Shown: positions 8,582 to 26,992, numbered from the stretch's first letter. The stretch is 64,000 nt of DNA from Thermoleophilia bacterium (GCA_027493445.1 JAOSKU010000001.1:3609845-3673844); one strand, 5' to 3'. Translations and numbers: made by a program. Notes: generated by a model from the sequence alone, not told the origin.

Positions 8582-8600
8582 AACGGAAGGAGGAAGCGTC

Positions 8601-8819: not shown

Positions 8820-8822
8820 CGG

Positions 8823-10486: not shown

Positions 10487-10815
10487 TGAGGCACGGCGTC
10501 CGGGTGGTATGCCGTCCCGAGGTAGCGGCCGGCTTCGCGCTTGCCGGGATGCACGTGCTCGAGGCCGACTCGATCGACCGCGGGGTGCGCGCCATCGTCG
10601 AGCTGGGAGGTCGCCCGGAGGTAGGGGTCATCCTGGCCCAGGAGGAGTTCTACGAGGGCCTCCCCGAGGAGGTGCGCCGCGACCTGGGTCGCCGGCCGTT
10701 GCCCATGGTGGTGCCTTTTCCGGGACCGACCTGGCAGGGGCGCCTGGCCGGTCCTGAGGCCTACATCGTCGAGATCCTTCGCCAGGCGATCGGTTACCGC
10801 GTACGGCTGCGTTGA
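10483..10815 (+). CDS. atpF: V/A-type ATPase subunit F
   Basis: 110 aa. MMRHGVRVVCRPEVAAGFALAGMHVLEADS matches the subunit F fold signature. Confidence 0.8.
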   Translation: MMRHGVRVVCRPEVAAGFALAGMHVLEADSIDRGVRAIVELGGRPEVGVILAQEEFYEGLPEEVRRDLGRRPLPMVVPFPGPTWQGRLAGPEAYIVEILRQAIGYRVRLR

Positions 10816-10825
10816 GGGGGAGGAG

Positions 10826-12711: not shown

Positions 12712-14093
12712 AGCCTCTGCAGCGCACGTACCGCGGGGCCCGAGCGGCCAGCGGGCCTCTTCTCTACCTGGAGGGTGCGCGCAACGTCTGTCTGGGGGAA
12801 TGGGTGGCCATCGAGGTCCCCGGTCAACCAGCCCGCCGGGGGCAGGTCATCGACGCGGGTGAGCGGGTCACCGTGATTCAGGTGCTGGAAGAGACCCTGG
12901 GCCTGCCCCCGGCTCGGGCCGAGGTGACCCTCACAGGGGAGACGGCCACCACGGTGGTGGGGCGCGAGCTTCTTGGCCGGGCCTTTACCGGCACCGGGTC
13001 CCCGGCCGACGGGCTGCCCGGCCCGGTGGGCGAGGCCATCCGGCCCATCTGGGGCGCGCCCATGAACCCGTCCCGGCGGCAGCGGCCCTCGGACTTCATC
13101 GAGACGGGTGTGTCGGCCATCGACGGCATGAATACCCTGGTGCGGGGACAGAAGCTGCCGGTATTTTCCGGCTCGGGCCTGCCCGGGCTGGAGCTGGCTT
13201 CGCAGATCGTGGAGAACGCGCGGGCTCCGCGCGGCGAGGCCTTCGCCGTGATCTTCGTGGCCATCGGCATTACGGCTCGGGAGACCCATGCCTTCCTCGA
13301 CCGGTTCGAGCGGAGCGGGGCCATGGAGAGGAGCATCCTCTATCTCAACGAGGCCCGCGACCCCACCATCGAGCGGTTGCTAGCTCCCCGGGTGGCTCTG
13401 ACCCAGGCCGAGTTCCTGGCCTTCGAGGCGGGCATGCACGTGCTGGTGGTCATGGCCGACATCACCCACTATTGCGAGGCCTTGCGCGAGATCGCCACCG
13501 CCCGGGAGGAGATACCGGGTCGCCGGGGGTACCCCGGGTACATGTACACGGACCTGGCGGGCATCTTCGAGCGGGCCGGTATCATCGCCGGCCGCGAGGG
13601 CTCGGTCACGCAGATCCCCATCCTCACCATGCCGGACGATGACATCACCCATCCCATCCCGGATCTCACAGGTTACATCACCGAGGGACAGCTGGTGCTC
13701 AGCCGTGACCTTCACCGCCGGGGTGTTTTCCCACCCCTGGATGTCCTGCCCTCCCTGTCGCGCCTGATGAACGCCGGGATCGGGCCGGGCAAGACCGCTC
13801 CCGAGCACCGCGAATGGGCCAACCAGCTCTACGCCGTCTACACTCGGGGCCGGGAAGCGCGGACGATGGTGTCCATCGTGGGGGAGGCCGGCCTCGGTGA
13901 GTCCGACCGGCGCGCCCTGGAGTTCGCCGAGCGGTTCGAGCGGGAGTTCGTCGATCAGGGCGAGCGCCGCCGCTCCATCGAGGAGACCTTGGAGGTCGGC
14001 TGGGCCCTCCTGGAGACTCTGCCGCGTGAGGACCTGCTCCGCATCAGCGACCAGGTGTGGGAAGCCCGCCGGGCCCGCCGGGAGGCGCCATGA
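12708..14093 (+). CDS. atpB: V/A-type ATPase subunit B
   Basis: 461-aa non-catalytic B subunit. The start overlaps the atpA stop. Confidence 0.9.
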
Positions 14094-14722
14094 GCGGCCT
14101 GCACGGCGTGGCGGCCACCAGGATGAACCTTCTGCGGGTCCAGCGCCGTCTCTCTCGGGTGGAGAAGGGCGTGGAGCTGCTGCGCCGCAAGAGGGAGGCT
14201 CTGGTCACCGAGCTTTTCCAGCTGGCCCGTCCGGCGATCGACTCGCGGGCCCAGATCGAGGAGCGGACGGCCCGAGCGTATCCCCTGCTTCTCGAGGCCT
14301 TGGCTGCCCACGGGCGCCCTGGTCTACGCGCCCTCGGCTGGCCGGCCCGGGACCTCACGGTGGATGTGCGCGCCGGCCAGGTGTGGGGCATCTCCGTGTC
14401 CGACATCGTAGAGCGTCCGCCACTGAGCCGTAGTCTGGCCAGCCGGGGCACGCCGCCGGGTAGCACAGGGGTCGCGACCGCCCTGGCGGCCGGCGAGTTC
14501 GAGATCTTGGCCGACCTGCTCCTGGACGCCGCTCCGCGCGAGATGCTCATCCGCCGCCTGGCGGAGGCCCTGGCTCAGACGTCGCGACAGGTGAACATGC
14601 TCGACCTGCGGGTGGCGCCGGCTCTGCGCGATCAGATGGCCGCCGTGCGCCGTACCCTTGAGGAACGCGAGCGCGAGGAACACCTGCGCCTCAAGCACCT
14701 CGTGCGCGCCCGGGCGGGGTAG
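14090..14722 (+). CDS. atpD: V/A-type ATPase central-stalk subunit D
   Basis: [38 protein letters not shown] is a typical D-subunit N-terminus. ATG at 14090 overlaps the atpB stop as ATGA. Confidence 0.85.
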   Translation: MSGLHGVAATRMNLLRVQRRLSRVEKGVELLRRKREALVTELFQLARPAIDSRAQIEERTARAYPLLLEALAAHGRPGLRALGWPARDLTVDVRAGQVWGISVSDIVERPPLSRSLASRGTPPGSTGVATALAAGEFEILADLLLDAAPREMLIRRLAEALAQTSRQVNMLDLRVAPALRDQMAAVRRTLEEREREEHLRLKHLVRARAG

Positions 14723-15045
14723 GAGTTGGTCCGCCACGCGGGTCATGGCGAACCCGGCGGTCTAGGCGGCCGGTTAGGTGGGGCAAGAGTCAACGAGAAG
14801 GATCGTTGGCGAACAAAGCCGCTTGCGTTGGGTTCCGCTTCGTGGTACAAGTTTGGTAACCGCTGTGTTGTTGAGTGTGGAAGCGGGGGTTTTGTGAAAA
14901 GTGGCGCAATTGGGCGGCCAGACATAGCGGTTCATGCTCCGGGCTACCCCCATGCCTCCTCCGGTCTCTCCCATCCCATCCCGGGCCAAGCTCTGCGATC
15001 GCATCGGTCTCGGCGCGCGGCTCGCCCGTCCCTGGGGAGCGTGCT
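14723..15045 (+). promoter_or_regulatory. Intergenic region between the V-ATPase operon and the hdr/mvh cluster; likely holds a terminator and promoter
   Basis: 320-bp non-coding stretch with locally lower GC (ttgggttccgcttcgtggtacaagtttggtaaccgctgtgttgttgagtgtgg). No ORF with coding character. A GGGGAG RBS precedes ATG 15046. Confidence 0.35.
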
Positions 15046-16861
15046 ATGAAGGTCGCAGTCTACATCTGCCAGGAGAACCCAGAAGCCGGCGGGGGGGTGA
15101 ATCTCGACTCTGTCGCCAAGTACGCGGCCAATCTCCCCGACGTGGCCCAAGTGAGGTCGCTGGGTGTGCGGCCGAAGCTGCTGCCGGAGCCGCTTGCTGC
15201 CGAGATCGGCCGGCAGGGTTTGGACAGGCTCGTCATAGCGGGGACTCGCCCGGCTACTTCAAGCCCGCTTTCACTCGAGCCATGGCGCTCGCCGGCGGGG
15301 ATCCGGGGGAGGTGCGGCTGGCATCATTTCGCGAGCACGGGGCCATTTCGTACGACGAGACCGAACGGGCTAAGGCCATCCTCGCCTGTGCGGTCAGCGG
15401 AGTTTCCTTTTGGCTCGCGGCTGTGCCGAAATTCACAACTGTGCATCCCGACACGCTGATCGTCGGTGCAGGGGTGGCGGGGATCCAGGCGGCTCTGGAG
15501 ATCGCGGAGGCGGGCAAGCATGTGTACCTAGTCGAACGGACCGGCACCATCGGAGGCCACATGGCCATGTTCGACAAGACCTTCCCCACCCTGGACTGCG
15601 CCGCGTGCATCCTTACACCGAAGATGGTGGCCGTCGGACAGCACGAGATGATCGAGCTCTTCACCATGAGCGAGGTCGAGGTAGTGGCCGGTGTGCCCGG
15701 CGATTACAGGGTGACGATCCGCCGGCAGCCACGCCGCGTGGACCAGGACGCCTGCGTGACTTGTGGCGCCTGCTCGGAAGCCTGCCCGGTGACGGTGCCG
15801 AGTGAGTTCGATTGCGGCATCGCTTCGCGAAACGCCATCTACATGCCCTTCCCTCAGGCGGTTCCCAACGCGTACTTGGTGGACGCGGCCTCGTGTCGCT
15901 ACGTACAGTCCGGTGGCGAGAAGTGTGGGGTGTGCGCCCGCAAGTGCCCCAAGGAGTGCATCAATCTCGACGAGGAAGTGGAGAGGGTCGAGGTCAAGGT
16001 GGGCAGTATCGTCCTCGCCACCGGCTACGACGTCTACGACGCCACCCGCATCGAGCGTTACGGCTACGGGGTTTACCCCAACGTGCTGACCGCTCTCGAG
16101 TTCGAGCGGCTCACGAATGCCTCGGGGCCGACCGGAGGTCGGATCGTGACCCGGACCTTGCGCCACGACAAGCGCGCCAAGGCCGACCAGTGGGTGTTCG
16201 ACCTCGCGGGTTCGGCGCCTCGAAGCGTGGCCATCGTGCACTGCGTCGGTTCCCGGGACCACAACCATAACCCGTATTGCTCGCGGGTCTGCTGTATGTA
16301 CTCACTCAAGTTCGCCCACCTGGTGAGGGAGAAGCTCCCCGACGCAGAGTGCTACGAGTTCTACATCGACATGCGGGCCTTCGGGAAGGGCTATGAGGAG
16401 TTCGCGGAGCGCATCAAGCAGGAGGGGACCTTCGTGGTGCGGGGGCGGTCGGCCAAGGTCACCGCCGCCGATGGCCGCATGCTGATCCGGGGGAGGACAT
16501 TCTGAGCGACCAGCTCCTGGAGTTCCCGGTGGACATGGTGCTTCTCGCTGTCGGCCTCGTCCCAGCGCACGGGTCGGAACTCACGGGCGCGTTGCTGGGT
16601 GTGGGCTGCGACGTGGATGGATGGTTCAGCGAGCTCGACTACAACGGCGATCCCACAGACACGGAACGAGGCGGGGTGTTCGTGGCCGGCGCGTGCCAGG
16701 GTCCCAAGGACATTCCCGACACCGTTGCCCAGGCCTCCGCGGCGGCCGCCGGTGTGCTGAAGAGCATCGCGAGCGGACGGGGCTACGGCAGTCTGAGCAG
16801 CCTTGCGCTCAGCGACGTCGAGGCGCGAGCGCGAGCGCTCGCCGCGGGAAAGGGGACCTGA
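15046..16861 (+). CDS. hdrA: Heterodisulfide-reductase subunit A-like flavoprotein 1 with an inserted 2x[4Fe-4S] ferredoxin domain, split into three frames by two single-G deletions near 15241 and 16491
   Basis: Cys-containing N-terminal domain MKVAVYICQ. FAD-binding GxGxxG (LIVGAGVAGIQAALEIAEAG). Inserted CVTCGACSEACP and CGVCARKCP motifs. C-terminal GVFVAGACQGPKDIPDTVAQASAAAAG. The joins LVIAG|DSPGYF and MLIRG|EDILSDQ each need one more G. Confidence 0.8.
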
Positions 16862-18012
16862 TGGCAACGCGGGTGAACCCCAAGCTCATCGACGACCTGG
16901 AGCGCTACGGCGCCCAGGACGTCTCGAAGTGCTACCACTGTGGCAATTGCTCGGCCGTGTGTCCCTTCTCGCAGGGTACCCGCATCTTTCCGAGGCGGTC
17001 CATGCGCCACCTGCAGCTTGGCCTGGAGAAGCGGCTGGAGGGAGACCTCGAGCCCTGGCTCTGCTACTACTGCGGGGAGTGCTCCGAGGACTGCCCCCGG
17101 GAGGCGGAGCCCGGCGAGACCATGATGAGCTTGCGGCGGTGGCTGACCTCCCGGTACGACTTCACCGGGATCTCGCGGCTCTTCTACCTCTCCTGGAAAG
17201 CGGAGCTCGGGGCTATCCTTCTGGTGGCCCTTCTCGCGGCGATCGGCTTCCTGTTGCTGGGGTTCCTGCACGGCAACATCGGGGTCTATGACGGTCCCGG
17301 CGCCTTCCTGCCGAGCCATATCGTGCACTGGTTCGACTGGAGCATGGCCGTGGTGCTGGTGATCCTTCTCGGTATCAACTGCGCCCGCATGTGGTGGTTC
17401 ACACTGGGCAGGGAGGGTCGCGACGCGGGTTTCCACGTTCCGCTGCGGGAATACCTGACCCGCGCCTATCTACTCCCCTTCCATTTCGCAACCCAGGCGC
17501 GCTATGCCCGGTGTGAGCGCAAGCGTCCGTGGGTGGTCCACCTGGCGCTGATGCTGAGCTACGTGACCATGCTGGTGCTCATCATGTTCTTCCTCGGCTT
17601 CATGCAGGCGGGGCCGGGCATCGACTGGCGGGTGCACGCCTTCGGCTACGCTGCGGCCCTGGGGTTGGTGGTGACCACCGCCTACGCTATGTGGGGCCGG
17701 GCAAAACGCACGGAGATGCGCTACAAGCACTCTCATGAGTCCGACTGGATCTTCCTTATCCTGCTCTTCGTGGTGGCGGGCACGGGAGTCCTCCAGCACA
17801 TCCTGCACCGCGCCGACCTCGACGTGGCCGCCAACGTCGTCTACGTGATGCACCTGATGGGCGTCGTGCCCATGCTGGTGCTGGAGGTGCCGTTCGGCAA
17901 ATGGGCCCACATGGCCTACCGGCCGCTGGCCATGTACTTCGCCGATCTGCAACCACGGGCGGTCCCCTCGAGATCGCGGGCCGAGACCGCGCGACGTGCC
18001 GCGGCGAGCTGA
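16861..18012 (+). CDS. QmoC/HdrE-like membrane subunit: N-terminal 2x[4Fe-4S] domain fused to a NarI/HdrE-type cytochrome-b-like membrane domain
   Basis: CYHCGNCSAVCP and CYYCGECSEDCP motifs are followed by 5-6 predicted TM helices carrying conserved His (HIVHWFDW, HAFGY, HLMGV). The TGATG start overlaps the upstream stop. Confidence 0.65.
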   Translation: MATRVNPKLIDDLERYGAQDVSKCYHCGNCSAVCPFSQGTRIFPRRSMRHLQLGLEKRLEGDLEPWLCYYCGECSEDCPREAEPGETMMSLRRWLTSRYDFTGISRLFYLSWKAELGAILLVALLAAIGFLLLGFLHGNIGVYDGPGAFLPSHIVHWFDWSMAVVLVILLGINCARMWWFTLGREGRDAGFHVPLREYLTRAYLLPFHFATQARYARCERKRPWVVHLALMLSYVTMLVLIMFFLGFMQAGPGIDWRVHAFGYAAALGLVVTTAYAMWGRAKRTEMRYKHSHESDWIFLILLFVVAGTGVLQHILHRADLDVAANVVYVMHLMGVVPMLVLEVPFGKWAHMAYRPLAMYFADLQPRAVPSRSRAETARRAAAS

Positions 18013-18023
18013 GGGAGAACGCC

Positions 18024-19774
18024 ATGAAACAGCACAGGACCGGCGTATACGTGTGTGCTTGTGGGACCAACATCGCCAAGGTGGTGGACTGTGACGAGGT
18101 GGTGCGCGCAGCTGAGGGGATCCCCGGGGTTGCGGTGGCCACCACCTACAAGTACATGTGCTCTACGCCCGGGCAGGAGATGATCATCGCCGACATCCAG
18201 GAGAAGGAGCTGGACCGGGTAGTGGTGGCCTCGTGCTCGCCGCGCATGCACGAGATCACCTTTAGAAAGGCCGTCAATAAGGCCGGTCTCAACCCCTACT
18301 ACCTACAGATGGCGAACATCCGCGAGCAGTGTAGCTGGGTACACGAAGACGGGGCCGAGGCCACCCAGAAGGCTATCGACCTGGTGCGCGCGGCTGTCGG
18401 CCGGGTGATTCTACACGAGCCTCTCGAGAGCCGCACGGTAGCCATGTGTCCGAACACCCTGGTCCTGGGTGGGGGCATCGCGGGCCTTACTGCGTCCCTG
18501 GAGCTGGCCGACGCGGGCTACCAGGTGTACCTGGTGGAGAAGGCGGACCATCTGGGCGGCAACCTGGCCCGGGTGGACCTGACCGCCCCGTACCTGGACT
18601 CGGCCCACGATCTCCTGCGCGAGCGGATCCATCGGGTGGCGGGTCACCCTCAAATCGAGACATTCCTAGGCGCTGGGGTGAAGTCGCTCGAAGGCTACGT
18701 GGGGAACTTCACGGCCACCGTGGTCCTGCCGGGGGCGACGGTGCCCGGCCGGCCGCCGGAAGCGGTGCCGATCGATCTTCGCGGGTTCTCGAGGTTGGGA
18801 GCGTGATCGTCGCCACCGGCTACCAGGAGTTCGACGCCTCGCGGATCACCCACTTCGGCTACGGCAAGTTGCCGAATGTCATCACGTCGTTCGAGTTCGA
18901 GCGGATGGTGCGCGAGGGGCGCATCGAGACGGCCGAGGAACGCCGGCCCCAGTACGCCGCCATCCTGCATTGCGTCGGCAGCCGGAGCCTGGAGTTCCAC
19001 GCCTATTGTTCGCGCGTCTGCTGCATGACCGCCCTGAAGTACGCCCACGAGCTGAAGTCCGCCGTCCCCGGCTGTTACGTCAGCGACGTGTACATCGACA
19101 TGCATGCCTTCGGCAAGGGGTGCGAGGATTTCTACCGGCGGAGCTCCGAGGTCAAGACCCTCTTCATCATGTATGGAAAGAACGACTACCCGGTGATCCG
19201 CAAGGCGGAGCCGGGGGACGACTGCGAGATGCTGATCGAGGTGAGCGAGCAGCTCTCGGGCGAGCGCATCGAGATCCCCGCTGACCTGGTGATCCTCATG
19301 GTGGGGATGGAAGCCCGGGCGGACGCCGCCGAGGTCGCCCGCCTGGTGCGCATCAGCCAGGACAAGGACGGGTGGTTCATCGAGAGCCATCCGAAGCTCG
19401 ATCCGGTGGCCACGACCACCGAAGGGGTCTTCATCGCCGGCACGTGCGCGGCTCCCAAAGACATCCCCGACTCGGTGGCCCAAGCTCGGGCCGCCGCCGC
19501 CCGCATCCTCGGCAAGATCGCCAAGGGGATCATCGAGGTGGATGCCGTGTTCGCCGAGATCGACGAGGAGGCGTGCTCGGGGTGTCGCATCTGCAACGAG
19601 CTCTGCCCGTATGGGGCCATCGAGTACAAGGCCGACGTTAAGCGAAGCCGGGTCATCTCTGCCCTCTGCAAGGCCTGCGGCGCCTGCGTAGCGGCGTGCC
19701 CGTCCGGCGCCATCAGAGCTCGTCACTTCACCGACGAACAGATCCTTGCCGAGATCGAGGGGGTGCTGGCATGA
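18024..19774 (+). CDS. hdrA: Heterodisulfide-reductase subunit A-like flavoprotein 2 (no inserted ferredoxin; C-terminal 2x[4Fe-4S]), split by one apparent single-G deletion near 18785
   Basis: Cys-rich N-terminus MKQHRTGVYVCACG...CSTPG...CSP. FAD-binding LVLGGGIAGLTASLELADAG. C-terminus GVFIAGTCAAPKDIPDSVAQARAAAA then CSGCRICNELCP and CKACGACVAACP. ORFs 17901..18806 and 18446..19774 join if the cgcggg run has one more G. Confidence 0.8.
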
Positions 19775-20319
19775 ACACCGACCTCGCCACCGCGGTCGAC
19801 GGCGCGGCTGCGGCCGTGGCCGACGGCGGCCGGACCGCCACGATGGTCGACGGGCATACCCGGCGCTCGGGGGCGGGCGCCGCGGCGTCGTTCCAGCCGC
19901 GCATCGTCGGGTTCCTGTGCAACTGGTGCTCCTACGCCGGCGCCGACCTTGCCGGCACGAGCCGCACCCACTACGCCGCCAGCGTGCGGGTGGTGCGGGT
20001 CATGTGCTCGGCCCGCGTCGACCCGACCTTCGTCCTGAAAGCCCTCGCCGAGGGAGCGGACGGGGTCCTCATCTGCGGGTGCCATCCAGGCGACTGCCAC
20101 TACTCCGAGGGCAACTACAAGACCATGCGCCGCTTCCCATTGCTCAAGAAGATGGTGGCCGATCTCGGCATCGAGGACGAGCGGGTGCGGCTCGAATGGG
20201 TGAGCGCCAGCGAAGGGCAGCGGTTCGCCGACGTGGTCAACGACATGACGCAGCGGCTGCGTGCACTGGGTCCCAGCAAGATCAAGATCGCGCTGGCTAC
20301 CGATCGCGCGGAGAGGTGA
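19771..20319 (+). CDS. mvhD: MvhD-like hydrogenase/heterodisulfide-reductase electron-transfer subunit
   Basis: IVGFLCNWCSYAGADLAG...LICGCHPGDCHY is the MvhD signature. ATG at 19771 overlaps the hdrA2 stop (ATGA). Confidence 0.8.
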   Translation: MNTDLATAVDGAAAAVADGGRTATMVDGHTRRSGAGAAASFQPRIVGFLCNWCSYAGADLAGTSRTHYAASVRVVRVMCSARVDPTFVLKALAEGADGVLICGCHPGDCHYSEGNYKTMRRFPLLKKMVADLGIEDERVRLEWVSASEGQRFADVVNDMTQRLRALGPSKIKIALATDRAER

Positions 20320-20322
20320 GTC

Positions 20323-21289
20323 ATGGGCGAGAGGAAGTTGCAGATCGCGCTGTACTGGGGAGCGGGGTGTGGCGGCTGCGACGTCGCCGTCCTCGATACC
20401 AACGAGTTCATCCTGGACGTGGCCGCACTTGCCGACATACGGCTCTGGCCGATCGCGGTGGACGGTAAGTACCGGGACGTGGAGGCGATGGCCGACCTGG
20501 AGCTCGACCTCACTCTGTTCAACGGAGCCGTGCGCAACTCCGAGAACGAGCACATCGCCTGCCTTCTGCGCCAAAAGAGCAAGCTCCTGGTGGCCTTCGG
20601 CTCGTGCGCGTACATGGGGGGCATCCCTGGGCTGGCCAATCTGGTGACGAAGGAAGAGATCTACGATTGCGCCTATCTCCACAACCCCTCCATTGAGCCG
20701 GGCAACACCACGGTCCCGCTGGCGCGCACCTCGGTGAACGGTTACTCGCTCGATATCCCCCGCTTCTACCGGAGGGTGTACAAACTCGACGACGTCGTGG
20801 ATGTGGACTACTACCTGCCCGGTTGCCCCCCGGCGGCCGACCAGGTGAAGGCCGTCCTTGGAGTGATCGCATCCGGGGCCGTGCCGCCAAAGGGCTCGGT
20901 GGTGGGCGCGGGGGACCGGGCGCTATGTGACGACTGCACGCGCGCCAAGACCGAGAAGAAGGTCAAGGAGTTCAAGCGTCCCTGGCAGATCATGGCCGAT
21001 CCGGAGACCTGCCTACTGGAGCAGGGGGATCCTGTGCTCGGGGCCGGCCACTCGCTCGGGGTGCGGGGTGCGCTGCCCGACGAGCGGCATCCCCTGCCGG
21101 GGGTGCTACGGGCCGCTGCCGGGAGTAGTCGATCAAGGAGCAAAGCTGCTTTCGGCGGTGACCTCGATCATCGACAGCAAGGACCCGGACGAGATCGACA
21201 CGATCCTCGCGGGCCTACCCGACTTCACCGGCTACGCCTACCGCTTCGGCCTCCCGGCCTCTCTCTTACAAAGGAGCGTCCGGCCATGA
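20323..21289 (+). CDS. mvhG: [NiFe]-hydrogenase small subunit (MvhG-like, group 3), with an apparent +1 G insertion near 21026
   Basis: N-terminus LQIALYWGAGCGGCDVAVLD. The C-terminus is found in ORF 20927..21289: ILCSGPATRSGCGVRCPTSGIPCRGCYGP. The join ETCLLEQG|ILCSGP needs removal of one G from cagggggatcc. Confidence 0.8.
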
Positions 21290-22752
21290 CGAGACTGATC
21301 ACCATCGATCCCATCACCCGGCTCGAGGGCCACGGCAAGATCGAGGTGTTCCTCGACGACGAGGGGGTTGTTCAGGACACTTTCTTCCAAATCCCGGAGC
21401 TGCGTGGTTTCGAGCGCTTCGTGGTGGGGAGGCCCATCGAGGAGTTGCCGCGCCTAGTGACCCGCATCTGCGGAGTCTGTCCGGCCAGCCACCACATGGC
21501 GAGCGCCAAGGCGGTCGACGGCTGCTTTGGCGGCGAGGTGGCGCCCCTTGCGGTGAAGCTGCGCGACATGTACTACAACGCTCACTACATGCACAGCCAT
21601 ATCGCCCACTTCTACGCGCTGGCGGCGCCGGACTTCGTGATGGGGCCCGACGCCGATCCCGCCGAGCGCAACATCCTGGGCGTGGTGGGGAAGGTGGGCT
21701 TGGAGATCGGGGGCGCGGTCATCAAAGCCCGGGGCCAGGCTCAGGAGATCCAGCGCATCATCGGCGGACGCAGCACCCAAGACATCTGGTGCCTGCCGGG
21801 CGGGGTGGCGAAGGGGCTGAAACCCGAGGAGCTCGAGCAGATCAAGCCCATGGCCCGCGAGCTCCACGACTTCGCTCTGTTCTCGCTACAGCTGTTCCGG
21901 GACGTGGTGCTGGGCAATCATGGTTATGTGGAGCTGATCCTGAACGGGCCCTACACTTTGAACGTCCAGAACATGGGACTGGTGGACGAGGCTAACGCTC
22001 CCGACTTCTACGACGGCCAGGTGCGGGTGGTGGATTTCGAAGGGAACGAGCTCTATCGCTACGAGTCGCGGGCGTATGCCGACTACGTGGCCGAGCACGT
22101 GGAGTCGTGGTCGTACCTCAAGTTCCCCTACCTGAAGAAGCGAGGTTGGAAGGGCTTCGTGGAGGGAATCGACACGAGCATCTATTGCGCCACGCCCTTG
22201 GCGCGCCTGAACGTGGCCGACCGCATGGCTACGTCCAAGGCCCAGGAGGCCTTTGAGGAGATGTTCTCGACCCTTGGTGGCCATCCGTGCCGGGCGCTGT
22301 TGGCCCAGCATTGGGCGCGACTCGTCGAGATGGTGCAGAACTCCGAGGCACTGCTTGCCTATTGTGACGATCCCGAGATCACGGGCGACGCATTCCGGGT
22401 GATACCGCAGGAGATCACCGGGGAGGGCGTGGGGATAGTCGAGGCCATGCGTGGCACTCTCACGCACCACTACACCTGCGACGACCGAGCTATCTGCACG
22501 AGCGCGAACCTGATCGTGGGCACGACGAACAACAACGCGCCCATCCAGATGGTGACGAAGAAGGTGGCCCAGGCGATGATCAAGCCCGGCGTGGAGCCGG
22601 ACCAGGGCGTGCTCAACATGATCGAGATGGGGTTTCGGGCGTTCGACCCGTGCTACAGCTGCGCCACCCACACACTGCCCGGAGAGATGCCCTTGGAGCT
22701 GATCGTCTGGAGGGAAGGTGAGGTGTGGCGCCGGGTGACGCGGAACTGCTAG
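21286..22752 (+). CDS. mvhA: [NiFe]-hydrogenase large subunit (MvhA-like)
   Basis: N-terminal RICGVCPASHHMAS motif and C-terminal DPCYSCATH motif. ATG at 21286 overlaps the small-subunit stop. There is a C-terminal tail after the CxxC-H, consistent with protease processing. Confidence 0.85.
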   Translation: MTRLITIDPITRLEGHGKIEVFLDDEGVVQDTFFQIPELRGFERFVVGRPIEELPRLVTRICGVCPASHHMASAKAVDGCFGGEVAPLAVKLRDMYYNAHYMHSHIAHFYALAAPDFVMGPDADPAERNILGVVGKVGLEIGGAVIKARGQAQEIQRIIGGRSTQDIWCLPGGVAKGLKPEELEQIKPMARELHDFALFSLQLFRDVVLGNHGYVELILNGPYTLNVQNMGLVDEANAPDFYDGQVRVVDFEGNELYRYESRAYADYVAEHVESWSYLKFPYLKKRGWKGFVEGIDTSIYCATPLARLNVADRMATSKAQEAFEEMFSTLGGHPCRALLAQHWARLVEMVQNSEALLAYCDDPEITGDAFRVIPQEITGEGVGIVEAMRGTLTHHYTCDDRAICTSANLIVGTTNNNAPIQMVTKKVAQAMIKPGVEPDQGVLNMIEMGFRAFDPCYSCATHTLPGEMPLELIVWREGEVWRRVTRNC

Positions 22753-23471
22753 GGTCGGGGCGACAGCCGGCAGTGTGGGCCGAGGCGTCCGCCGAGGGCG
22801 GCGGGGCCGAGGCGCCTGCCGGAGGCCGGTCGGGCTACGGCGGTGGAGATCGCTCGGTCGAGTCGCACTCGACGGGCGCCGCCGGGAGGACGCTCATCAT
22901 CGGCATGGGCAACCCGATCGTGAGCGACGACGCCGTCGGTGTGCTCTTGGCCACCGATCTCAAGCGCAGTCTGGCGGCAGTTGGGGTGGCTGGGGCGGCG
23001 TCGACCGCGACTGCCGGCGAGCTGGGGGGTCCGCCCGCAGCCGGCCACGCGCGGGGGCACGGGCGCGCGACTGAGGCGGTGGACGTGGTCGAAGAGTGCG
23101 CCTGCGGGGGACTGAGCCTCCTAGACATGGTGGTCGGGTACGACCGGCTGATCGTGCTCGACGCCATCAAAACCCGCGGCGGCGTGCCGGGCACTTGGTT
23201 CGAGCTCACAGCCGGCGATCTGCGCGAGACTCTACACCTTCGCAACGTACACGACGTCAATCTGGCGACCGCGCTCGCGCTCGGCCGGCGCCTGGGCCTT
23301 CAAGTGCCCGAAGATGCCCAGGTCCATATCTTCGCTGTGGAGGTCGAGGACGTCTGCACCTTCGCGGAGACCATGACCCCGGCGCTGCAGGCCACGTATC
23401 CCCAGCTGGCCGACGAGATCTACCGGCGCGTCACGGTGTTGCTTCGATCAGGCAGTGGGGCGGTGGTCTAA
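22725..23471 (+). CDS. Hydrogenase maturation endopeptidase (HyaD/HycI family); N-terminal extent uncertain
   Basis: LIIGMGNPIVSDDAVGVLLA and the later DAIK/HDV region match hydrogenase maturation proteases. The annotated GTG start gives an unusual 60-aa Gly/Ala-rich leader that overlaps the mvhA 3' end. Confidence 0.6.
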   Translation: MAPGDAELLGSGRQPAVWAEASAEGGGAEAPAGGRSGYGGGDRSVESHSTGAAGRTLIIGMGNPIVSDDAVGVLLATDLKRSLAAVGVAGAASTATAGELGGPPAAGHARGHGRATEAVDVVEECACGGLSLLDMVVGYDRLIVLDAIKTRGGVPGTWFELTAGDLRETLHLRNVHDVNLATALALGRRLGLQVPEDAQVHIFAVEVEDVCTFAETMTPALQATYPQLADEIYRRVTVLLRSGSGAVV

Positions 23472-23949
23472 GGTCGGGAGGCGCATCCTCCCCGTTCGTG
23501 GTATGGTACACGAAAGTATTGGGTCCTGCGCGCTCAGGGGGTCTGCAGATGAACGCGGGTGCTGACACAGCGAGAGAGCGTCAGGAAGCCGTGGATGGCT
23601 CCGTGCTCGAGGGGTATGGGCTGCGGTGGGCGGTACTGGCGGCCTGGGCCGACCAACTCAGGGGCCGGGGGCGGATGTGTCTCCCCAGGTGCGTAGGAAG
23701 CAGGAGGAGGCCCGCGTCATGATCTCGTCGGGCTGCTTCTCCAGCTGCGAGGTCGGGTGCATCCTTGGGGACATCGAGGCCGCGCTCATGACGGCGGACG
23801 GGTCCACTTCGGACACCCGGGCGGGCTTCTGGACCGAGCTCCTGGCCATGGCCATGTCCGACCGCGCGGGGGCCACGCAGCTGCTCCGTTTCCCCGCGGT
23901 GAAGGTGCACTTCAGCGATTGCGGGGCCCCTGTTTGCCGGTGCTGAGGA

Positions 23950-24650
23950 CGGTGCCCGTTCTCCGGTGAACTGATCAAGACCCGGCGCGAGGAGCGGTCT
24001 ACCGTTGTCCTTGCCGAGCAGGCCCAGCGGGCGGCGGGGGAGGCGGACGAGCGCCAGGCCCGCGACGCACGACTCGACGCACCTCTCGACGCATCGATGG
24101 TTTCCTCGCTTCGTGAGGCCGGAGCCATCTCCATTGGCCGGACCGACCTGGGTGATGCCGCTGGTGTCCGCGAGGCGAACACGCGAAAGGCCGGTATCGC
24201 ATCGCCGGCCTACGCTCTGATCGAGGCGAACGCGCGCGGCTGGAGTTCTCCGCTCATCCTGGCGCTCTTCGCCGTCTCGGTAGCGACGCTCACGAGCTTT
24301 TTCGTCGTTAAGTCGCGCACCGCCGGCCCGATGCTGCAGCTGCACTCCTTCCGCGACCCCACCTTCGCGGCCGCCAATGCGGTGGCGGCCATCATCAGTT
24401 TCGGCCTGTTCGGGATCTTCATTCTTCGGCTCCGATCGGCGGCCAGATAGCGGGCCGCATCGGCTCGCGGGCGCCCATGGTGGCCGGACTCACGTTCGCC
24501 GGGAGGAACCTCCTGCTGATGACGCGGGTCGACGCAGGAGATCCCTACGCGACGATCCGGCCCTTCCTCATGCTGATGGGTCTGGGGATGAGCTTGGCGA
24601 TCTCGCCGATGACCGCCGCCGTTTTCCGTCCGAGCTCCCATTTATGCTCG
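23950..24650 (+). pseudogene. Remnant of an EmrB/QacA-type MFS drug-efflux gene (internal fragment only, frameshifted)
   Basis: ORF 24097..24450 gives PMLQLHSFRDPTFAAANAVAAIISFGLFG (TM6-7 region). ORF 24477..24806 gives LMGLGMSLAISPMTAAVF (TM8-9 region) in another frame. No N-terminal TMs or C-terminus are found, and no convincing coding signal exists in 23480-23950. Confidence 0.4.
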
Positions 24651-24681
24651 TTCCACGTGATCAGGACCAGGAGGTGCGGGC

Positions 24682-25233
24682 ATGAGGCGCTCGAGAGGGC
24701 GGGGGGCACGGTGGGCGTCACTGGCGGCCGGAGCTGTTCTGACGGCCATCGCGGTCGGGGCGTTGGCGGGAGGTATCGCGGAGGGGGCGGGTGGTGGCCG
24801 GCCTGAACCGGTCGGCGGGTACCCGAGCGCAGACCTCCAGCTTCGCGGGTCGGAGTCGTCCCCGGCGGTGCCCGGCAACGATTCATCGGCCTTGCTGCAG
24901 GGCCCGTGGTCTATTGTAGAAGGTCATGTGCACGTCGTAGTGGAACGGGTGGAGACCGGGGTCGAACGGGGAGAAGGGCGCCTGGCCGTCTATCTCACCG
25001 TCGTGAACGAAGGCGACCACCTGGCTACGGTGACCCCGCTCGACTTCGCGCTGATCGACGAGAGAGGCGGTCGCACTGTGGCCATCGTTGGAGGCGGTGC
25101 GCACGAAGACGCGTTGCTGCCCGCGGTGGCCCTCGATTCGGGGGAGCGGGCCGAGGGATGGCGGGTGTTCAAGCTCCCCCGGGGGAGGTCGATCTTCGAG
25201 CTTCGCTACCGCCCCGAGGTCCGAGGCAGCTGA
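24682..25233 (+). CDS. Secreted or membrane-anchored hypothetical protein (DUF4352-like beta-sandwich)
   Basis: Basic N-terminus followed by a hydrophobic helix (signal/anchor). Then a G/A-rich linker and a compact domain with coding-like composition. Confidence 0.5.
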   Translation: MRRSRGRGARWASLAAGAVLTAIAVGALAGGIAEGAGGGRPEPVGGYPSADLQLRGSESSPAVPGNDSSALLQGPWSIVEGHVHVVVERVETGVERGEGRLAVYLTVVNEGDHLATVTPLDFALIDERGGRTVAIVGGGAHEDALLPAVALDSGERAEGWRVFKLPRGRSIFELRYRPEVRGS

Positions 25234-25447
25234 TTGGTGGTCGTCGGGGGGGCGCTCGTTGATCGCACATAGTACAGCTCCTCCGCCCCGCCCCCGGTCT
25301 GTTCCGGCTCGGCAGGCTGGGCTTACCGGTGTTCGCGTGCGGGCATACTTCCCACTGGAAAGTGCGGGCGGGCTGGGCCCGTCCCCCTCCTCAGGAGCGT
25401 GAGACCCGCGGGGCCGGAGGGCCTCGGCGGCCGGAAGGGAGCTTCGA

Positions 25448-26944
25448 ATGTTGCGGATCGAGATAGAAAGGGATCTCAAGATGATCGTCGGGGGCGAGGA
25501 GGTCGAGGCCGCCGGCGGGCAGCGGATGGAGGTCGTTAACCCGGCCGACGAGACCGTCGTGGGCAGCGTGCCCAAAGCGGGCTCCGAGGACGTGGCGCGG
25601 GCGGTGGCCGCCGCGCGCAAGGCCTTCAAGACGTGGTCGCGTCTCTCGCCCGGAGAGCGGGGGACCTTGCTGACCCGCCTGGCCGACCGCTTGGACGAGT
25701 ACGCGCGGCCGCTCGCCGAGCTGGAAACGGCTCAGACGGGCAAGCCCATCAAGCTCTCGGCCAACTCCGACGTGCCCTTCGCCAACGACAACATCCGTTT
25801 CATGGGCGCGCAGGCCCGGGTGCTCGAGGGGAGCGCCGCCGGGGAGTACGTCACGGGCTACACCAGCATCATCCGCCGGGAACCGGTGGGGGTGGTGGGC
25901 TCCATCGCTCCCTGGAACTACCCGTACCTCATGGCCGCTTGGAAGATCGGCCCGGCTCTGGCGGCGGGGAACACCGTTCTTCTGAAGCCGGCGTCGAATA
26001 CGCCCCTCACCTCCATCGAGATCGCCAAAGTGGCGCTGGAGGTGGGTATCCCTGAGGGCGTGCTGAACGTGGTCACCGGACCGGGCGCTGAAGTGGGCAA
26101 GGCCATGACCACCCATCCGGATATCAACATGATCTCTTTGACCGGCGACACGGCTACGGGGGCGCTGATCATGGCGCAGGCGGCTCCCACGGTGAAGCGC
26201 CTGCATCTGGAGCTGGGGGGCAAGGCGCCCTTCATCGTCTTCGACGACGCCGACCTGGAGGCCGCGGTGCAGGGCGCCGTGGTGGGCGGCTTCGTCAACA
26301 CCGGGCAGGACTGCACCGCCGCTACCCGGGTCTACGTGCAGCGAGCCCGTTACCCCGAGTTCCTGGAAAGGTTCGTTGAGGCGACCCGCGCGATCCGCGT
26401 GGGAGATCCGATGCTCGAGACCACCGACATGGGTCCCCTGATCTCGGCGGCCCAGAGGGAGCGGGTGGTCGGTTTCATGGAGCGGTCGCGGGCGGCCGGC
26501 ATCCAGGTCGCGCTCGGCGGCCATGTCATCGACGGCCCCGGCTTCTATTTCCAGCCCACCATCCTGACGGGGGCCAGGCACGAGGACGAGGTGGTGCAGA
26601 GAGAGATCTTCGGGCCCGCCGTGGTGGTCATGAGCTTCGACACGGAGGAGGAGATCGTCGAGAAGGCAAACGGCGTGGAGTACGGTCTGGCCTCCTCGGT
26701 CTGGACAACCAACGTATTCCGGGCCCTGCGGGTCTCGAAGGAGCTGGAGTTCGGCGAGGTGTGGATCAACGACCACCTGCCCCTTGCTTCCGAGATGCCT
26801 CACGGTGGGGTGAAGAAGTCGGGCTTCGGCAGCGATCTGTCCCGGTACAGCTTCGAGGAGTACACCACGGTCAAACACGTGATGGCCGACCTGACCGGCG
26901 GCGCTCGCAAGGGCTGGCACTTTACCGTGTACGGCGACGCCTGA
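25448..26944 (+). CDS. NAD(P)-dependent aldehyde dehydrogenase
   Basis: ALDH motifs are present: ELGGKAP, the catalytic Cys region GQDCTAATR and EIFGPV. Length is about 490 aa. The start may be 25448 or 25481. Confidence 0.9.
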   Translation: MLRIEIERDLKMIVGGEEVEAAGGQRMEVVNPADETVVGSVPKAGSEDVARAVAAARKAFKTWSRLSPGERGTLLTRLADRLDEYARPLAELETAQTGKPIKLSANSDVPFANDNIRFMGAQARVLEGSAAGEYVTGYTSIIRREPVGVVGSIAPWNYPYLMAAWKIGPALAAGNTVLLKPASNTPLTSIEIAKVALEVGIPEGVLNVVTGPGAEVGKAMTTHPDINMISLTGDTATGALIMAQAAPTVKRLHLELGGKAPFIVFDDADLEAAVQGAVVGGFVNTGQDCTAATRVYVQRARYPEFLERFVEATRAIRVGDPMLETTDMGPLISAAQRERVVGFMERSRAAGIQVALGGHVIDGPGFYFQPTILTGARHEDEVVQREIFGPAVVVMSFDTEEEIVEKANGVEYGLASSVWTTNVFRALRVSKELEFGEVWINDHLPLASEMPHGGVKKSGFGSDLSRYSFEEYTTVKHVMADLTGGARKGWHFTVYGDA

Positions 26945-26992
26945 TAGGAGCGGCGCGAGGACCGTCCGCCAGGGCCAGCGCCTGAACCCGGG

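What the first reader, a model, noticed from the sequence alone, without database searches (positions are those of the whole stretch)
15046..23471. Hybrid Hdr/Qmo/Mvh cluster: two HdrA paralogues flank a QmoC-like membrane FeS/cytochrome-b subunit, followed by MvhD-MvhG-MvhA and a protease
The gene order is HdrA1 (with inserted ferredoxin), a QmoC/HdrE-like protein (2x[4Fe-4S] plus a NarI-type membrane domain), HdrA2 (with C-terminal ferredoxin), MvhD, the [NiFe] small subunit, the large subunit and an endopeptidase. There is no HdrB/HdrC (CCG-domain) gene anywhere in the window. Canonical Mvh-Hdr is soluble MvhADG-HdrABC. Canonical Qmo is QmoA, QmoB (with an MvhD-like domain) and QmoC, with no hydrogenase. 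Here the MvhD module is separate and directly coupled to a group-3 [NiFe] hydrogenase. This looks like a membrane-anchored, H2-driven, possibly flavin-based electron-bifurcating Qmo-like complex. That is an unusual combination, and it sits directly downstream of the V/A-ATPase operon.
Basis: partly seen in the sequence, partly recalled or inferred. Interest (0 to 1): 0.7.

Follow-up and report, generated by a model that had tools for sequence, protein, structure and literature searches.

The report
Membrane-anchored hydrogenase–HdrA–QmoC operon
A seven-gene operon joins a cytoplasmic nickel-iron hydrogenase to two complementary flavoproteins and a membrane cytochrome. It probably links hydrogen to the membrane quinone pool, and perhaps to ferredoxin. 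The same module is common in environmental bacteria, but I found no biochemical study of it.

Summary
Window 15046-23471 (+) encodes HdrA1, a QmoC-type protein, HdrA2, MvhD, MvhG, MvhA and a maturation protease, tightly packed. There is no HdrB/CCG, apr, dsr or sat gene in the ORFs tested across the window.

All four shifts are 1-nt indels in G runs. Short-read assemblies of the same strain, with 0 mismatches over HdrA2 to the protease, give intact genes. AtpA is broken the same way. These are assembly errors, not decay.

The module is not rare. Relatives of the QmoC-type protein occur in at least 598 species genomes. Of the best 80 loci, 47 carry the HdrA1-QmoC-HdrA2 trio next to mvhDGA, across about seven phyla. 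Elsewhere the same core sits beside FlxABC (NAD(P)H) or a selenocysteine formate dehydrogenase.

HdrA1 and HdrA2 have complementary halves of methanogen HdrA, conserved in more than 50 orthologues. This implies an obligate heterodimer.

Best reading, inferred and not shown: QmoC replaces HdrBC, so H2 reduces menaquinone, probably coupled to ferredoxin by flavin-based bifurcation or its reverse.

The V/A-ATPase adjacency is not conserved. I rate it a new variant of a known kind. The literature mentions it only in passing, as function unknown.

The parts
15046..16861 (+). HdrA1, 605 aa once two missing G at 15239 and 16488 are restored. It has an N-terminal domain without FeS cysteines, an FAD (thioredoxin-reductase-like) domain with DKTFPTLDCAAC, an inserted 2x[4Fe-4S] ferredoxin domain and the four HA4 cysteines. 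It has no C-terminal ferredoxin domain.
   Evidence: frameshifts. (605-aa intact gene in L001). (aligns 2-578 to 5ODC_A 5-568, E 9e-136). (cysteine conservation in 52 orthologues).
16861..18012 (+). QmoC-type subunit, 383 aa. It has an N-terminal HdrC-like 2x[4Fe-4S] domain, six predicted transmembrane helices, and invariant H227, H292, H331 and H350 (H313 in 73 of 76). I infer that these are the heme b ligands.
18024..19774 (+). HdrA2, 583 aa once the missing G at 18730 is restored. It has an N-terminal domain with all cluster cysteines, an FAD domain lacking the Cys194/Cys197 equivalents (DLTAPYLDSAHD), a deleted inserted ferredoxin domain, the HA4 cysteines and a C-terminal 2x[4Fe-4S] ferredoxin domain.
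   Evidence: (aligns 1-233 and 256-581 to 5ODC_A 1-234 and 319-649). (53 orthologues).
19771..20319 (+). MvhD, 182 aa. This is the [2Fe-2S] electron-transfer subunit, encoded as a separate gene and not fused to an HdrA/QmoB-like protein.
   Evidence: PF02662 FlpD, 2.7e-54. (VhuD, 2.8e-39)..
20323..21289 (+). MvhG, the [NiFe] hydrogenase small subunit, 321 aa once the extra G at 21024 is removed. In the raw window it reads through into mvhA as a false 809-aa ORF.
   Evidence: (PF01058). (VhuG, 2.4e-59). (321-aa gene in L001 and L002).
21286..22752 (+). MvhA, the [NiFe] hydrogenase large subunit, 488 aa. It carries the RICGVCPASHH and DPCYSCATH nickel-binding motifs and a C-terminal extension after the final histidine, which I take to be the stretch a maturation protease removes.
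   Evidence: best solved relatives are Mvh/Vhu subunit A: 9sw2_F 7e-114, 5odc_F 4e-106. (VhuA is the best family, 342 bits, below the 800-bit cutoff).
22725..23471 (+). Hydrogenase maturation endopeptidase, called as 248 aa. Relatives match only residues about 50-240. There is a low-complexity insertion at about residues 85-125.
   Evidence: PF01750 HycI. (TIGR00072, 76.7 bits, above the 47.45-bit cutoff)..
14723..15045 (.). A 323-nt intergenic gap between atpD and hdrA1, presumably the operon's own promoter region.
   Evidence: The consensus scan found no sigma-70-like promoter or intrinsic terminator anywhere in 14500-25500.

Best explanation
The seven genes encode one membrane-anchored complex, MvhAG-MvhD-HdrA1/HdrA2-QmoC, plus its maturation protease.

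Proposed path:
1. H2 is oxidised at the cytoplasmic [NiFe] site of MvhA.
2. Electrons pass through the MvhG clusters and the MvhD [2Fe-2S] cluster into the C-terminal ferredoxin domain of HdrA2.
3. They reach the FAD of an obligate HdrA1/HdrA2 heterodimer.
4. The high-potential electron leaves through the HA4-type cluster, the two [4Fe-4S] clusters of the HdrC-like domain of QmoC and its two hemes b, and reduces menaquinone. QmoC therefore takes the place of HdrBC and heterodisulfide.
5. The low-potential electron leaves through the N-terminal cluster and then the inserted ferredoxin domain of HdrA1, and reduces ferredoxin. The N-terminal cluster would be built from HdrA2 cysteines plus the Cys197-equivalent of HdrA1.

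Net reaction: 2 H2 + MQ + 2 Fd(ox) -> MQH2 + 2 Fd(red) + 2 H+. It could run in reverse as confurcation.

Shown here: gene content, domain and ligand complementarity, conservation, and swapping of the electron-input module.

Inferred: that the proteins form one complex, that hemes and quinone bind, the direction of electron flow, and bifurcation itself.
For: 1. The operon is tight, with overlapping or nearly abutting genes.

2. Synteny. Of the 80 best loci carrying a QmoC-type relative, 30 have the identical order and 17 have the permuted order mvhDGA-hdrA1-qmoC-hdrA2. They come from Actinomycetota, Acidobacteriota, Latescibacterota, Aminicenantes, Chrysiogenia and Bacteroidota, among others.

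3. The same HdrA1-QmoC-HdrA2 (+MvhD) core sits next to other donor modules. FlxD-C-B-A, an NAD(P)H module, precedes it in L041 and L034. Five further loci (L022, L030, L039, L042, L050) show the same MvhD-upstream pattern by tblastn only. A selenocysteine FdhA follows it in L010. In the separate QmoA-QmoB-QmoC-order loci, an HdrA carries an NfnB/GltD-like insert; this was checked by Pfam in L024, and ORF size suggests the same in L017, L019 and L023. Methanogen HdrABC pairs with Mvh or Fdh and sulfate-reducer HdrABC pairs with Flx in the same way (PMC5861303, PMC3333476).

4. Complementarity, mapped on 5ODC HdrA. [quoted passage not shown] HdrA2 is the exact converse. All of this is conserved in 52 and 53 orthologues. 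It matches the heterodimer logic proposed for tandem HdrA genes in ANME archaea (PMC9012536).

5. QmoC. The NCBIfam qmoC model aligns over its full length. The N-terminal domain resembles HdrC. The model has six transmembrane helices. Four histidines are invariant and one nearly so, placed toward both membrane faces. The fold resembles the quinone-reducing EtfD and NarI.

6. Thermodynamics, from established values. Menaquinone (about -75 mV, PMC3333476) is an even better high-potential acceptor than heterodisulfide (-140 mV, PMC5861303). FixABCX is a precedent for quinone-dependent bifurcation (PMC5861303).

7. Conserved flanking regulators fit a redox-regulated energy module. A GAF-HisKA sensor kinase flanks 26 loci. 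Rex flanks 5 Bacteroidota loci.
Against: - No biochemistry exists for any member that I could find. Ten literature searches produced no paper describing this cluster.
- Retaining the inserted ferredoxin domain does not prove that ferredoxin is reduced.
- HdrA2 has lost the DKTFPT motif next to its flavin, so which FAD bifurcates, if either does, is unknown.
- No ferredoxin gene and no ferredoxin-consuming enzyme lies in the operon.
- Some relatives (L009, L012) carry a canonical hdrCBA-mvhD directly downstream, so Mvh could serve another Hdr there.
- The rest of the 4.6-Mb genome could not be searched for hdrBC, apr or dsr genes.
Confidence: 0.5

Rival explanations
1. This is a plain, non-bifurcating cytoplasmic H2:menaquinone oxidoreductase, or its reverse. 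All electrons from H2 go through the HdrA pair and QmoC to quinone. The ferredoxin-type domains are only wiring.
For: The gene content and QmoC architecture are the same as for the best explanation. There is no ferredoxin gene in the operon. HdrA homology alone does not prove bifurcation, as PMC5861303 points out.
Against: A simple H2:quinone enzyme would not need two flavoproteins. It would also have no reason to keep strictly, in 52 of 52 orthologues, the eight cysteines of the inserted ferredoxin domain that forms the ferredoxin-reducing branch in Mvh-Hdr. The donor modules that swap onto this core (Mvh, Fdh, Flx) are those that feed bifurcating HdrA cores elsewhere.
Confidence: 0.2
2. This is a true Qmo-type quinol oxidase. 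QmoC takes electrons from menaquinol, the hydrogenase supplies a second low-potential electron, and the two together reduce a soluble acceptor encoded elsewhere, such as APS reductase or a DsrC-like or other thiol/disulfide protein. This is the confurcation scheme that Ramos et al. proposed for QmoABC.
For: PMC3333476 proposes a hydrogenase, a formate dehydrogenase or ferredoxin as the co-donor for Qmo through the MvhD-like domain. PMC10504309 reports 'type II' Qmo proteins, closer to HdrA, in sulfate reducers (Ammonifex, Vulcanisaeta) and also in organisms without Dsr or Apr. In the NJ tree HdrA1 and HdrA2 sit beside the QmoA-like and QmoB-like proteins of Actinomycetes and Chloroflexi.
Against: No apr, sat or dsr gene appears in the ORFs tested across the window. 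Clustering the ORFs that flank the module in the related loci gave only regulators as recurrent neighbours, and no candidate acceptor enzyme.
Confidence: 0.15
3. There are two separate systems that only share an operon. MvhAGD would feed a canonical HdrABC or another acceptor encoded elsewhere. HdrA1-QmoC-HdrA2 would work on its own with an unknown donor.
For: Thermoleophilia relatives L009 and L012 have a second hdr cluster with its own mvhD just after the protease. In L009 Pfam confirms it as hdrC-hdrB(CCG)-hdrA. L004 and L015 carry a second Mvh cluster nearby.
Against: An MvhD gene travels with the HdrA1-QmoC-HdrA2 trio whichever donor module is present (Mvh, Flx or Fdh). HdrA2 keeps the C-terminal ferredoxin domain, which is where electrons from MvhD enter in the solved complex (PMC9012536). 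The window has no HdrB.
Confidence: 0.1
4. The cluster is a decaying pseudogene relic, because three of its seven genes are frameshifted in the window.
For: There are four frame breaks, in HdrA1 (two), HdrA2 and MvhG.
Against: All four are single-base indels in G4-G6 runs. Independent short-read assemblies with 0 mismatches (covering HdrA2 and MvhG) and a 99.3% identical strain (covering all four sites) have intact genes. The same error type hits AtpA and other genes or spacers in the window.
Confidence: 0.02

Closest known systems
MvhADG-HdrABC, the H2:heterodisulfide oxidoreductase of methanogens, an electron-bifurcating complex with a group 3c [NiFe] hydrogenase (PDB 5ODC)
   Same: MvhA, MvhG and MvhD are all present, and the best solved relatives of MvhA are Mvh/Vhu subunit A (E 7e-114). 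The HdrA fold, FAD domain, HA4 cysteines and both ferredoxin domains are present, at 41-49% identity. The HdrC-like two-cluster domain is present. A maturation protease is encoded.
   Different: There is no HdrB, so no CCG domains, no non-cubane clusters and no heterodisulfide site. HdrC is fused to a six-helix cytochrome-b-type membrane domain. HdrA is split into two paralogues with complementary domains and ligands, so the core would be a heterodimer, not a homodimer. The complex is predicted to be membrane-bound, and the host is a bacterium.
QmoABC, the quinone-interacting membrane-bound oxidoreductase of sulfate reducers and Chlorobi, including the 'type II' Qmo of PMC10504309
   Same: It has two HdrA-related flavoproteins plus a QmoC subunit (HdrC-like FeS domain fused to an HdrE/NarI-like cytochrome b). 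An MvhD module is part of the system. It has no HdrB.
   Different: The gene order is A1-C-A2, not A-B-C. HdrA1 is not an FAD-only QmoA. MvhD is a separate gene, not the C-terminal domain of QmoB. A hydrogenase is encoded in the operon. There is no linkage to aprBA or sat. The QmoC score is below the NCBIfam equivalog cutoff (180 against 300 bits).
FlxABCD-HdrABC, the NADH dehydrogenase/heterodisulfide reductase of Desulfovibrio
   Same: The logic is the same: a donor module, an MvhD-like FlxD and an HdrA core. Relatives of this locus (L034 and L041 by Pfam; five more by tblastn pattern) carry FlxD-C-B-A directly upstream of HdrA1-QmoC-HdrA2.
   Different: The window carries Mvh, not Flx. The acceptor branch is QmoC, not HdrBC/DsrC.
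FixABCX and EtfD, the quinone-linked branches of electron-transferring flavoprotein systems
   Different: The flavoprotein family is unrelated (Etf, not HdrA). The EtfD match covers only 212 residues at 14% identity.
Tandem or fused HdrA paralogues of ANME archaea and Moorella MetFV-HdrABC-MvhD (PMC9012536)
   Same: [quoted passage not shown] The other copy has Cys197 but cannot bind the N-terminal cluster. This pattern is interpreted there as an obligate heterodimer.
   Different: Here the ferredoxin domains are also partitioned, with the inserted domain in HdrA1 and the C-terminal domain in HdrA2. The partner is QmoC, not HdrBC.

Membership tests
MvhADG-HdrABC (group 3c [NiFe] hydrogenase : heterodisulfide reductase) | Large subunit of the Mvh/Vhu type with the N-terminal RxCGxC and C-terminal DPCxxC nickel-binding motifs | tested here: met
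   The motifs RICGVCPASHH and DPCYSCATH are present. The best PDB hits are MvhA/VhuA (7e-114 and 4e-106). The best NCBIfam family is VhuA, but at 342 bits it is below the 800-bit equivalog cutoff. HydDB and a maximum-likelihood tree were not available.
MvhADG-HdrABC (group 3c [NiFe] hydrogenase : heterodisulfide reductase) | MvhG small subunit and MvhD [2Fe-2S] subunit | tested here: met
   PF01058 and VhuG (2.4e-59). PF02662 FlpD (2.7e-54).
MvhADG-HdrABC (group 3c [NiFe] hydrogenase : heterodisulfide reductase) | HdrB with two CCG domains, the heterodisulfide-reducing site | tested here: not met
   tblastn with the L009 HdrB gave a best E of 0.23. The CCG regex found no match in any of the six frames. 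No PF02754 was found in any window ORF tested.
MvhADG-HdrABC (group 3c [NiFe] hydrogenase : heterodisulfide reductase) | A single HdrA polypeptide carrying FAD and all six [4Fe-4S] sites, forming a homodimer | tested here: not met
   The sites are split between HdrA1 and HdrA2.
QmoABC | QmoC: an HdrC-like 2x[4Fe-4S] domain fused to a multi-helix di-heme cytochrome b domain | tested here: inconclusive
QmoABC | QmoA: a flavoprotein of about 410 aa with only the FAD domain | tested here: not met
   HdrA1 is 605 aa, with an N-terminal domain and an inserted two-cluster ferredoxin domain. Compare the 426-aa FAD-only QmoA-like protein in L037.
QmoABC | QmoB: an HdrA-like protein with a fused C-terminal MvhD-like domain | tested here: not met
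   HdrA2 ends after its C-terminal ferredoxin domain, and MvhD is a separate 182-aa gene. Compare the 714-aa QmoB-FlpD fusion in L037.
QmoABC | Genomic linkage with aprBA or sat | tested here: not met
   None was found in the ORFs tested across the 64-kb window. No conserved acceptor gene was found among the recurrent flanking-gene clusters of the related loci. The rest of the genome could not be searched.
'Type II' Qmo (PMC10504309) | QmoA and QmoB closer to typical HdrA than to bacterial type I QmoAB, with a type II QmoC | tested here: inconclusive
   Both flavoproteins are 41-49% identical to methanogen HdrA. In the NJ tree they branch away from the Myxococcota QmoA/QmoB-like pair. The reference type II sequences (Ammonifex, Vulcanisaeta) were not available for comparison.
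HdrA heterodimer pattern (PMC9012536) | Complementary presence of the N-terminal cluster cysteines in one paralogue and Cys197 in the other | tested here: met
   HdrA1 has C185/C188 in 52 of 52 orthologues and lacks the N-terminal ligands. HdrA2 has C11, C13, C46 and C71 in 53 of 53 and never has a cysteine at the Cys194/197 positions.
[NiFe] hydrogenase maturation endopeptidase (HycI/HyaD family) | A match to the family profile above the curated cutoff | tested here: met
   TIGR00072 at 76.7 bits, above the 47.45-bit cutoff. PF01750 at 26.5 bits, above the 23-bit cutoff.

The most novel reading that the evidence does not exclude
This is the first HdrA-type flavin-based electron-bifurcating enzyme whose high-potential acceptor is the membrane quinone pool. 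It would be a modular 'donor : menaquinone + ferredoxin' oxidoreductase in which the same HdrA1/HdrA2/QmoC/MvhD core accepts electrons from H2 (Mvh), formate (Sec-FdhA) or NAD(P)H (Flx). Running forward, it would let soil, peat and sediment bacteria of many phyla make reduced ferredoxin from H2 while charging the quinone pool. Running in reverse, it would dispose of quinol-level electrons as H2.
Probability: 0.4. Interest if true: 0.82.

Novelty: new variant of a known kind. Interest (0 to 1): 0.62.

Why it matters
Bacterial group 3c hydrogenases are widespread in anoxic soils, peat and sediments. Their role is usually copied from methanogens, as heterodisulfide reduction, even though most of these bacteria make no CoM-S-S-CoB.

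This locus and its relatives point to a different acceptor, the quinone pool, reached through a QmoC subunit that replaces HdrBC.

If confirmed, this would:
- give a function to a large, uncharacterised share of HdrA and Mvh genes in metagenomes;
- provide a tractable model for the long-debated Qmo confurcation hypothesis and for the purpose of the MvhD-like module in QmoB;
- add a second, unrelated enzyme family, after FixABCX, that couples quinone reduction to ferredoxin reduction.

The clean split of HdrA's cofactor sites between two paralogues is also a natural experiment on how electrons are routed in HdrA dimers.

Tried and rejected
- **Pseudogene or decaying operon.** Rejected. All frame breaks are homopolymer indels that are absent from identical short-read assemblies, and the same errors occur elsewhere in the window.
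- **A real MvhG-MvhA fusion (the 809-aa ORF).** Rejected, for the same reason: it comes from the extra G at 21024.
- **Functional link to the V/A-ATPase operon.** Rejected. AtpB and AtpD queries hit none of the 80 related loci (L004-L083).
- **Standard QmoA and QmoB.** Rejected.
- **hdrBC hidden in the window.** Rejected.
- **My first guess for the HdrA2 frameshift site (18785).** Wrong. Comparison with L002 puts it at 18730.
- **Promoter and terminator consensus scan of 14500-25500.** Found nothing. This is uninformative in a 68% GC actinobacterium.
- **Literature.** Queries on 'group 3c' + QmoC, 'Qmo-like' + hydrogenase + HdrA, and 'QmoC-like' returned nothing. Two papers could not be retrieved.
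- **Histidine geometry in the QmoC model.** Could not be measured, because the model coordinates are not exposed.

Full report
**What is there.** The window is about 68% GC. Its QmoC-like protein is 100% identical to one from a Thermoleophilia MAG whose longest contig is 4.6 Mb.

Between 15046 and 23471 on the + strand lie seven tightly packed genes. Pfam and NCBIfam identify them as follows.

| Gene | Coordinates | Main evidence |
|---|---|---|
| HdrA1 | 15046-16861 | HdrA-like flavoprotein |
| QmoC-type | 16861-18012 | NF038018 qmoC aligned over its whole length, E 1e-52, but 180 bits against a 300-bit cutoff |
| HdrA2 | 18024-19774 | second HdrA-like flavoprotein |
| MvhD | 19771-20319 | PF02662, 2.7e-54 |
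| MvhG | 20323-21289 | small subunit |
| MvhA | 21286-22752 | large subunit |
| protease | 22725-23471 | TIGR00072, above cutoff |

The best solved relatives of MvhA are the Mvh/Vhu A subunits (7e-114 and 4e-106). It carries RICGVCPASHH and DPCYSCATH.

In this copy HdrA1 changes frame twice, HdrA2 once and MvhG once. The MvhG shift makes MvhG run into MvhA as a false 809-aa ORF.

Every junction lies in a run of four to six G. An exact-sequence look-up of MvhA found three other contigs.
- Two short-read assemblies (L002, L003) have 0 mismatches to the window. They differ only by single-G indels at 18730, 21024 and 23666.
- A 99.3% identical contig (L001) also restores 15239 and 16488. HdrA1 is covered only by this contig.
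- In the restored loci the genes are intact, at 605, 383, 583, 182, 321, 488 and 248 aa.

Indels of the same kind lie outside the cluster at 14888 and 30150, and AtpA is broken at a G5 run near 11260. These are homopolymer errors of the assembly, not gene decay.

**No HdrBC or sulfur genes nearby.** An HdrB taken from a relative (L009, confirmed as CCG by Pfam) finds nothing in the window by tblastn (best E 0.23). A CCG-motif regex is empty in all six frames.

I ran Pfam on the other long, coding-like ORFs of the window. They are:
- a V/A-ATPase operon upstream;
- two small ORFs without Pfam hits, DUF4352, aldehyde dehydrogenase and trehalose genes downstream;
- unrelated genes further out.

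None carries a CCG, Apr, Dsr or Sat domain. A 323-nt gap separates atpD from hdrA1.

**How common it is.** The QmoC-type protein has thousands of close relatives in metagenomes. The best 120 are all at least 64% identical. It also has 184 clusters at 50% identity with E of 1e-30 or better.

I fetched the best 80 with 10-kb flanks and mapped the seven proteins onto them.

| Arrangement | Loci | Taxa |
|---|---|---|
| Same order as the window | 30 | Thermoleophilia and other Actinomycetota, several orders of Acidobacteriota, Latescibacterota, Aminicenantes, Chrysiogenia, some Bacteroidota |
| Permuted, mvhD-G-A-hdrA1-qmoC-hdrA2 | 17 | Bacteroidales, Cytophagales |
| QmoA-QmoB-QmoC-like order | 16 | Actinomycetes, Gaiellales, Chloroflexota, Myxococcota |
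| HdrA1-QmoC-HdrA2 without MvhGA, MvhD 3-5 kb upstream | 7 | Geobacteraceae, Anaeromyxobacter, Acidobacteriota |
| HdrA1-QmoC-HdrA2-MvhD followed by FdhA | 1 | Thermoanaerobaculaceae (L010) |
| Contig too short to tell | 9 | - |

None of the 80 related loci has the V/A-ATPase next to it.

**The donor module is interchangeable.**
- In the seven loci of Geobacteraceae, Anaeromyxobacter and Acidobacteriota the trio has no hydrogenase. In the two I examined by Pfam (L041, L034) it is preceded by MvhD/FlxD, two FeS proteins, and an FAD_binding_6 + NAD_binding_1 + DHODB-FeS protein. That is the FlxDCBA NAD(P)H module.
- In L010 (Thermoanaerobaculaceae) HdrA1-QmoC-HdrA2-MvhD is followed by a molybdopterin formate-dehydrogenase catalytic subunit. 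It has an in-frame stop at the ...DHCARL*HS... position, which I read as selenocysteine.
- In L024 the first HdrA carries an NfnB/GltD-like NAD(P)H insert. Similar long HdrA ORFs in L017, L019 and L023 suggest the same.

These donor modules parallel those attached to bifurcating HdrABC cores in methanogens and sulfate reducers (PMC5861303, PMC3333476). MvhD travels with the core.

Recurrent neighbours are regulators: a GAF-HisKA kinase in 26 loci, response regulators, and Rex in five Bacteroidota loci. No acceptor enzyme recurs.

**Two half-HdrAs.** I aligned both paralogues to the solved HdrA of 5ODC.

| Feature of methanogen HdrA | HdrA1 | HdrA2 |
|---|---|---|
| Region aligned to 5ODC_A | 2-578 to 5-568 | 1-233 and 256-581 to 1-234 and 319-649 |
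| Identity | 41% | 42-49% |
| N-terminal cluster cysteines | lost (only one kept) | all kept |
| DKTFPT(L/N)DCxxC motif (Cys194/197) | kept | replaced by DLTAPYLDSAHD |
| Inserted two-cluster ferredoxin domain | kept | deleted |
| HA4 cysteines | kept | kept |
| C-terminal ferredoxin domain | absent | kept |

In the methanogen homodimer, Cys197 of one protomer ligates the N-terminal cluster of the other. The C-terminal domain receives electrons from MvhD, and the inserted domain delivers electrons to ferredoxin (PMC9012536, PMC6019823).

The partition here therefore predicts an obligate HdrA1/HdrA2 heterodimer that keeps exactly one complete set of routes. It is conserved in all 52 HdrA1 and 53 HdrA2 orthologues examined.

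A rough NJ tree shows that each paralogue forms its own clade. Both are nearer to methanogen HdrA than to the Myxococcota QmoA (426 aa, FAD only) and QmoB-MvhD fusion (714 aa). So the proteins are not standard QmoA and QmoB. They fit what PMC10504309 calls 'type II' Qmo, whose function that paper leaves open.

**The membrane subunit.** The N-terminal 95 residues match HdrC (2e-12). The AlphaFold model has a mean pLDDT of 75.6, rising to 80-95 in the membrane part. It shows six transmembrane helices and a C-terminal amphipathic helix.

Across 76 homologues down to 38% identity, H227, H292, H331 and H350 are invariant and H313 is nearly so. With the loop-charge pattern, they sit toward both faces of the membrane. 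This would fit two bis-histidine hemes b, but that is an inference.

**Mechanism.** I propose that QmoC replaces HdrBC. [quoted passage not shown] One branch goes through HA4, the QmoC clusters and the hemes to menaquinone. The other goes through the shared N-terminal cluster and the inserted domain of HdrA1 to ferredoxin.

Menaquinone (about -75 mV) is a better high-potential acceptor than heterodisulfide (-140 mV). FixABCX already shows that quinone-dependent flavin bifurcation exists (PMC5861303). The reaction could run in reverse.

Everything beyond gene content, ligand pattern, conservation and module swapping is inference. A non-bifurcating H2:quinone enzyme, a Qmo-style quinol oxidase serving an unknown soluble acceptor, and two unrelated systems sharing an operon all remain possible.

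**Novelty.** The nearest mentions are:
- the 'type II Qmo' remark (PMC10504309);
- the proposal by Ramos et al. that a hydrogenase might partner Qmo (PMC3333476);

The window is one ordinary member of a widespread but uncharacterised family. The family itself is a new variant of the Mvh-Hdr/Qmo kind.

Noticed in passing
window 11260, 14888, 15239, 16488, 18730, 21024, 23666, 30150, 30914, 26948-26951: There are systematic single-base indels in G/C homopolymers relative to near-identical short-read contigs. They break AtpA, HdrA1, HdrA2, MvhG and probably other genes. The window has 196 G/C runs of 5 or more bases. This looks like a long-read assembly that was never polished, so any ORF-based reading of this window needs frameshift-tolerant methods. 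The difference at 26948-26951 is a 4-nt GAGC insertion relative to L001, just after the aldehyde dehydrogenase gene.
   Followed up: partly
window 6296-14722 (+): This is a V/A-type ATPase operon, with subunits I, E, C, A, B and D identified. It ends 323 nt upstream of hdrA1. The adjacency is not seen in any of the 80 related loci fetched.
   Followed up: partly
L009 16718-20715; L012 about 16600-20800: In two Thermoleophilia relatives a second hdr cluster with its own mvhD follows the maturation protease directly. In L009 Pfam confirms it as hdrC-hdrB(CCG)-hdrA with a full-length 675-aa HdrA; L012 shows the same pattern by tblastn only. A QmoC-linked and an HdrBC-linked HdrA system therefore sit side by side. 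L004 and L015 carry a second, divergent Mvh/HdrA cluster upstream on the other strand.
   Followed up: partly
L010 13330-16158: A formate-dehydrogenase-type molybdoenzyme follows HdrA1-QmoC-HdrA2-MvhD where the hydrogenase would be. It has an in-frame stop at the position where FdhF-type enzymes carry selenocysteine (...NNVDHCARL*HSVTV...). I did not check that the codon is TGA or look for a SECIS element.
   Followed up: partly
L024 4483-7419 (and L017, L019, L023): In L024 an HdrA-like protein of 978 aa carries an inserted GltD/NfnB-like Fer4_20 + Pyr_redox_2 module, in a QmoA-QmoB-QmoC-order cluster from Actinomycetes MAGs. L017, L019 and L023 have similar long HdrA ORFs of 868-972 aa. This resembles the HdrA-NfnB fusions described for ANME-1.
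   Followed up: partly
window 22725-23471: The maturation protease is called at 248 aa, about 90 aa longer than typical family members. Relatives match only from about residue 50. There is an Ala/Gly-rich insertion at about residues 85-125. The true start codon is uncertain.
   Followed up: no
window 37098-42316 (+): Two adjacent ORFs match BrxC/BrxD-type ATPase and are probably one gene split by a frameshift. A SNF2 helicase-Mrr restriction endonuclease fusion follows. This is a possible phage-defence islet.
   Followed up: no
window 26993-30654 (-): These are trehalose-related genes on the opposite strand: a GT20 trehalose-phosphate synthase-like gene, TreT/GT4 and DUF5752. The annotation comes from the L001 gene table.
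   Followed up: no
window 44911-48629 (+): There are two sets of hydantoinase/oxoprolinase domain ORFs. The first appears to be split between 44911-46098 and 46160-46960, probably by another assembly frameshift.
   Followed up: no
L063 3999-4697 (-), and L053, L062, L070, L082: A Rex-type redox-sensing repressor (Put_DNA-bind_N + CoA_binding) lies next to the permuted Mvh-HdrA1-QmoC-HdrA2 operon in Bacteroidota. This hints at control by NADH/NAD+.
   Followed up: partly
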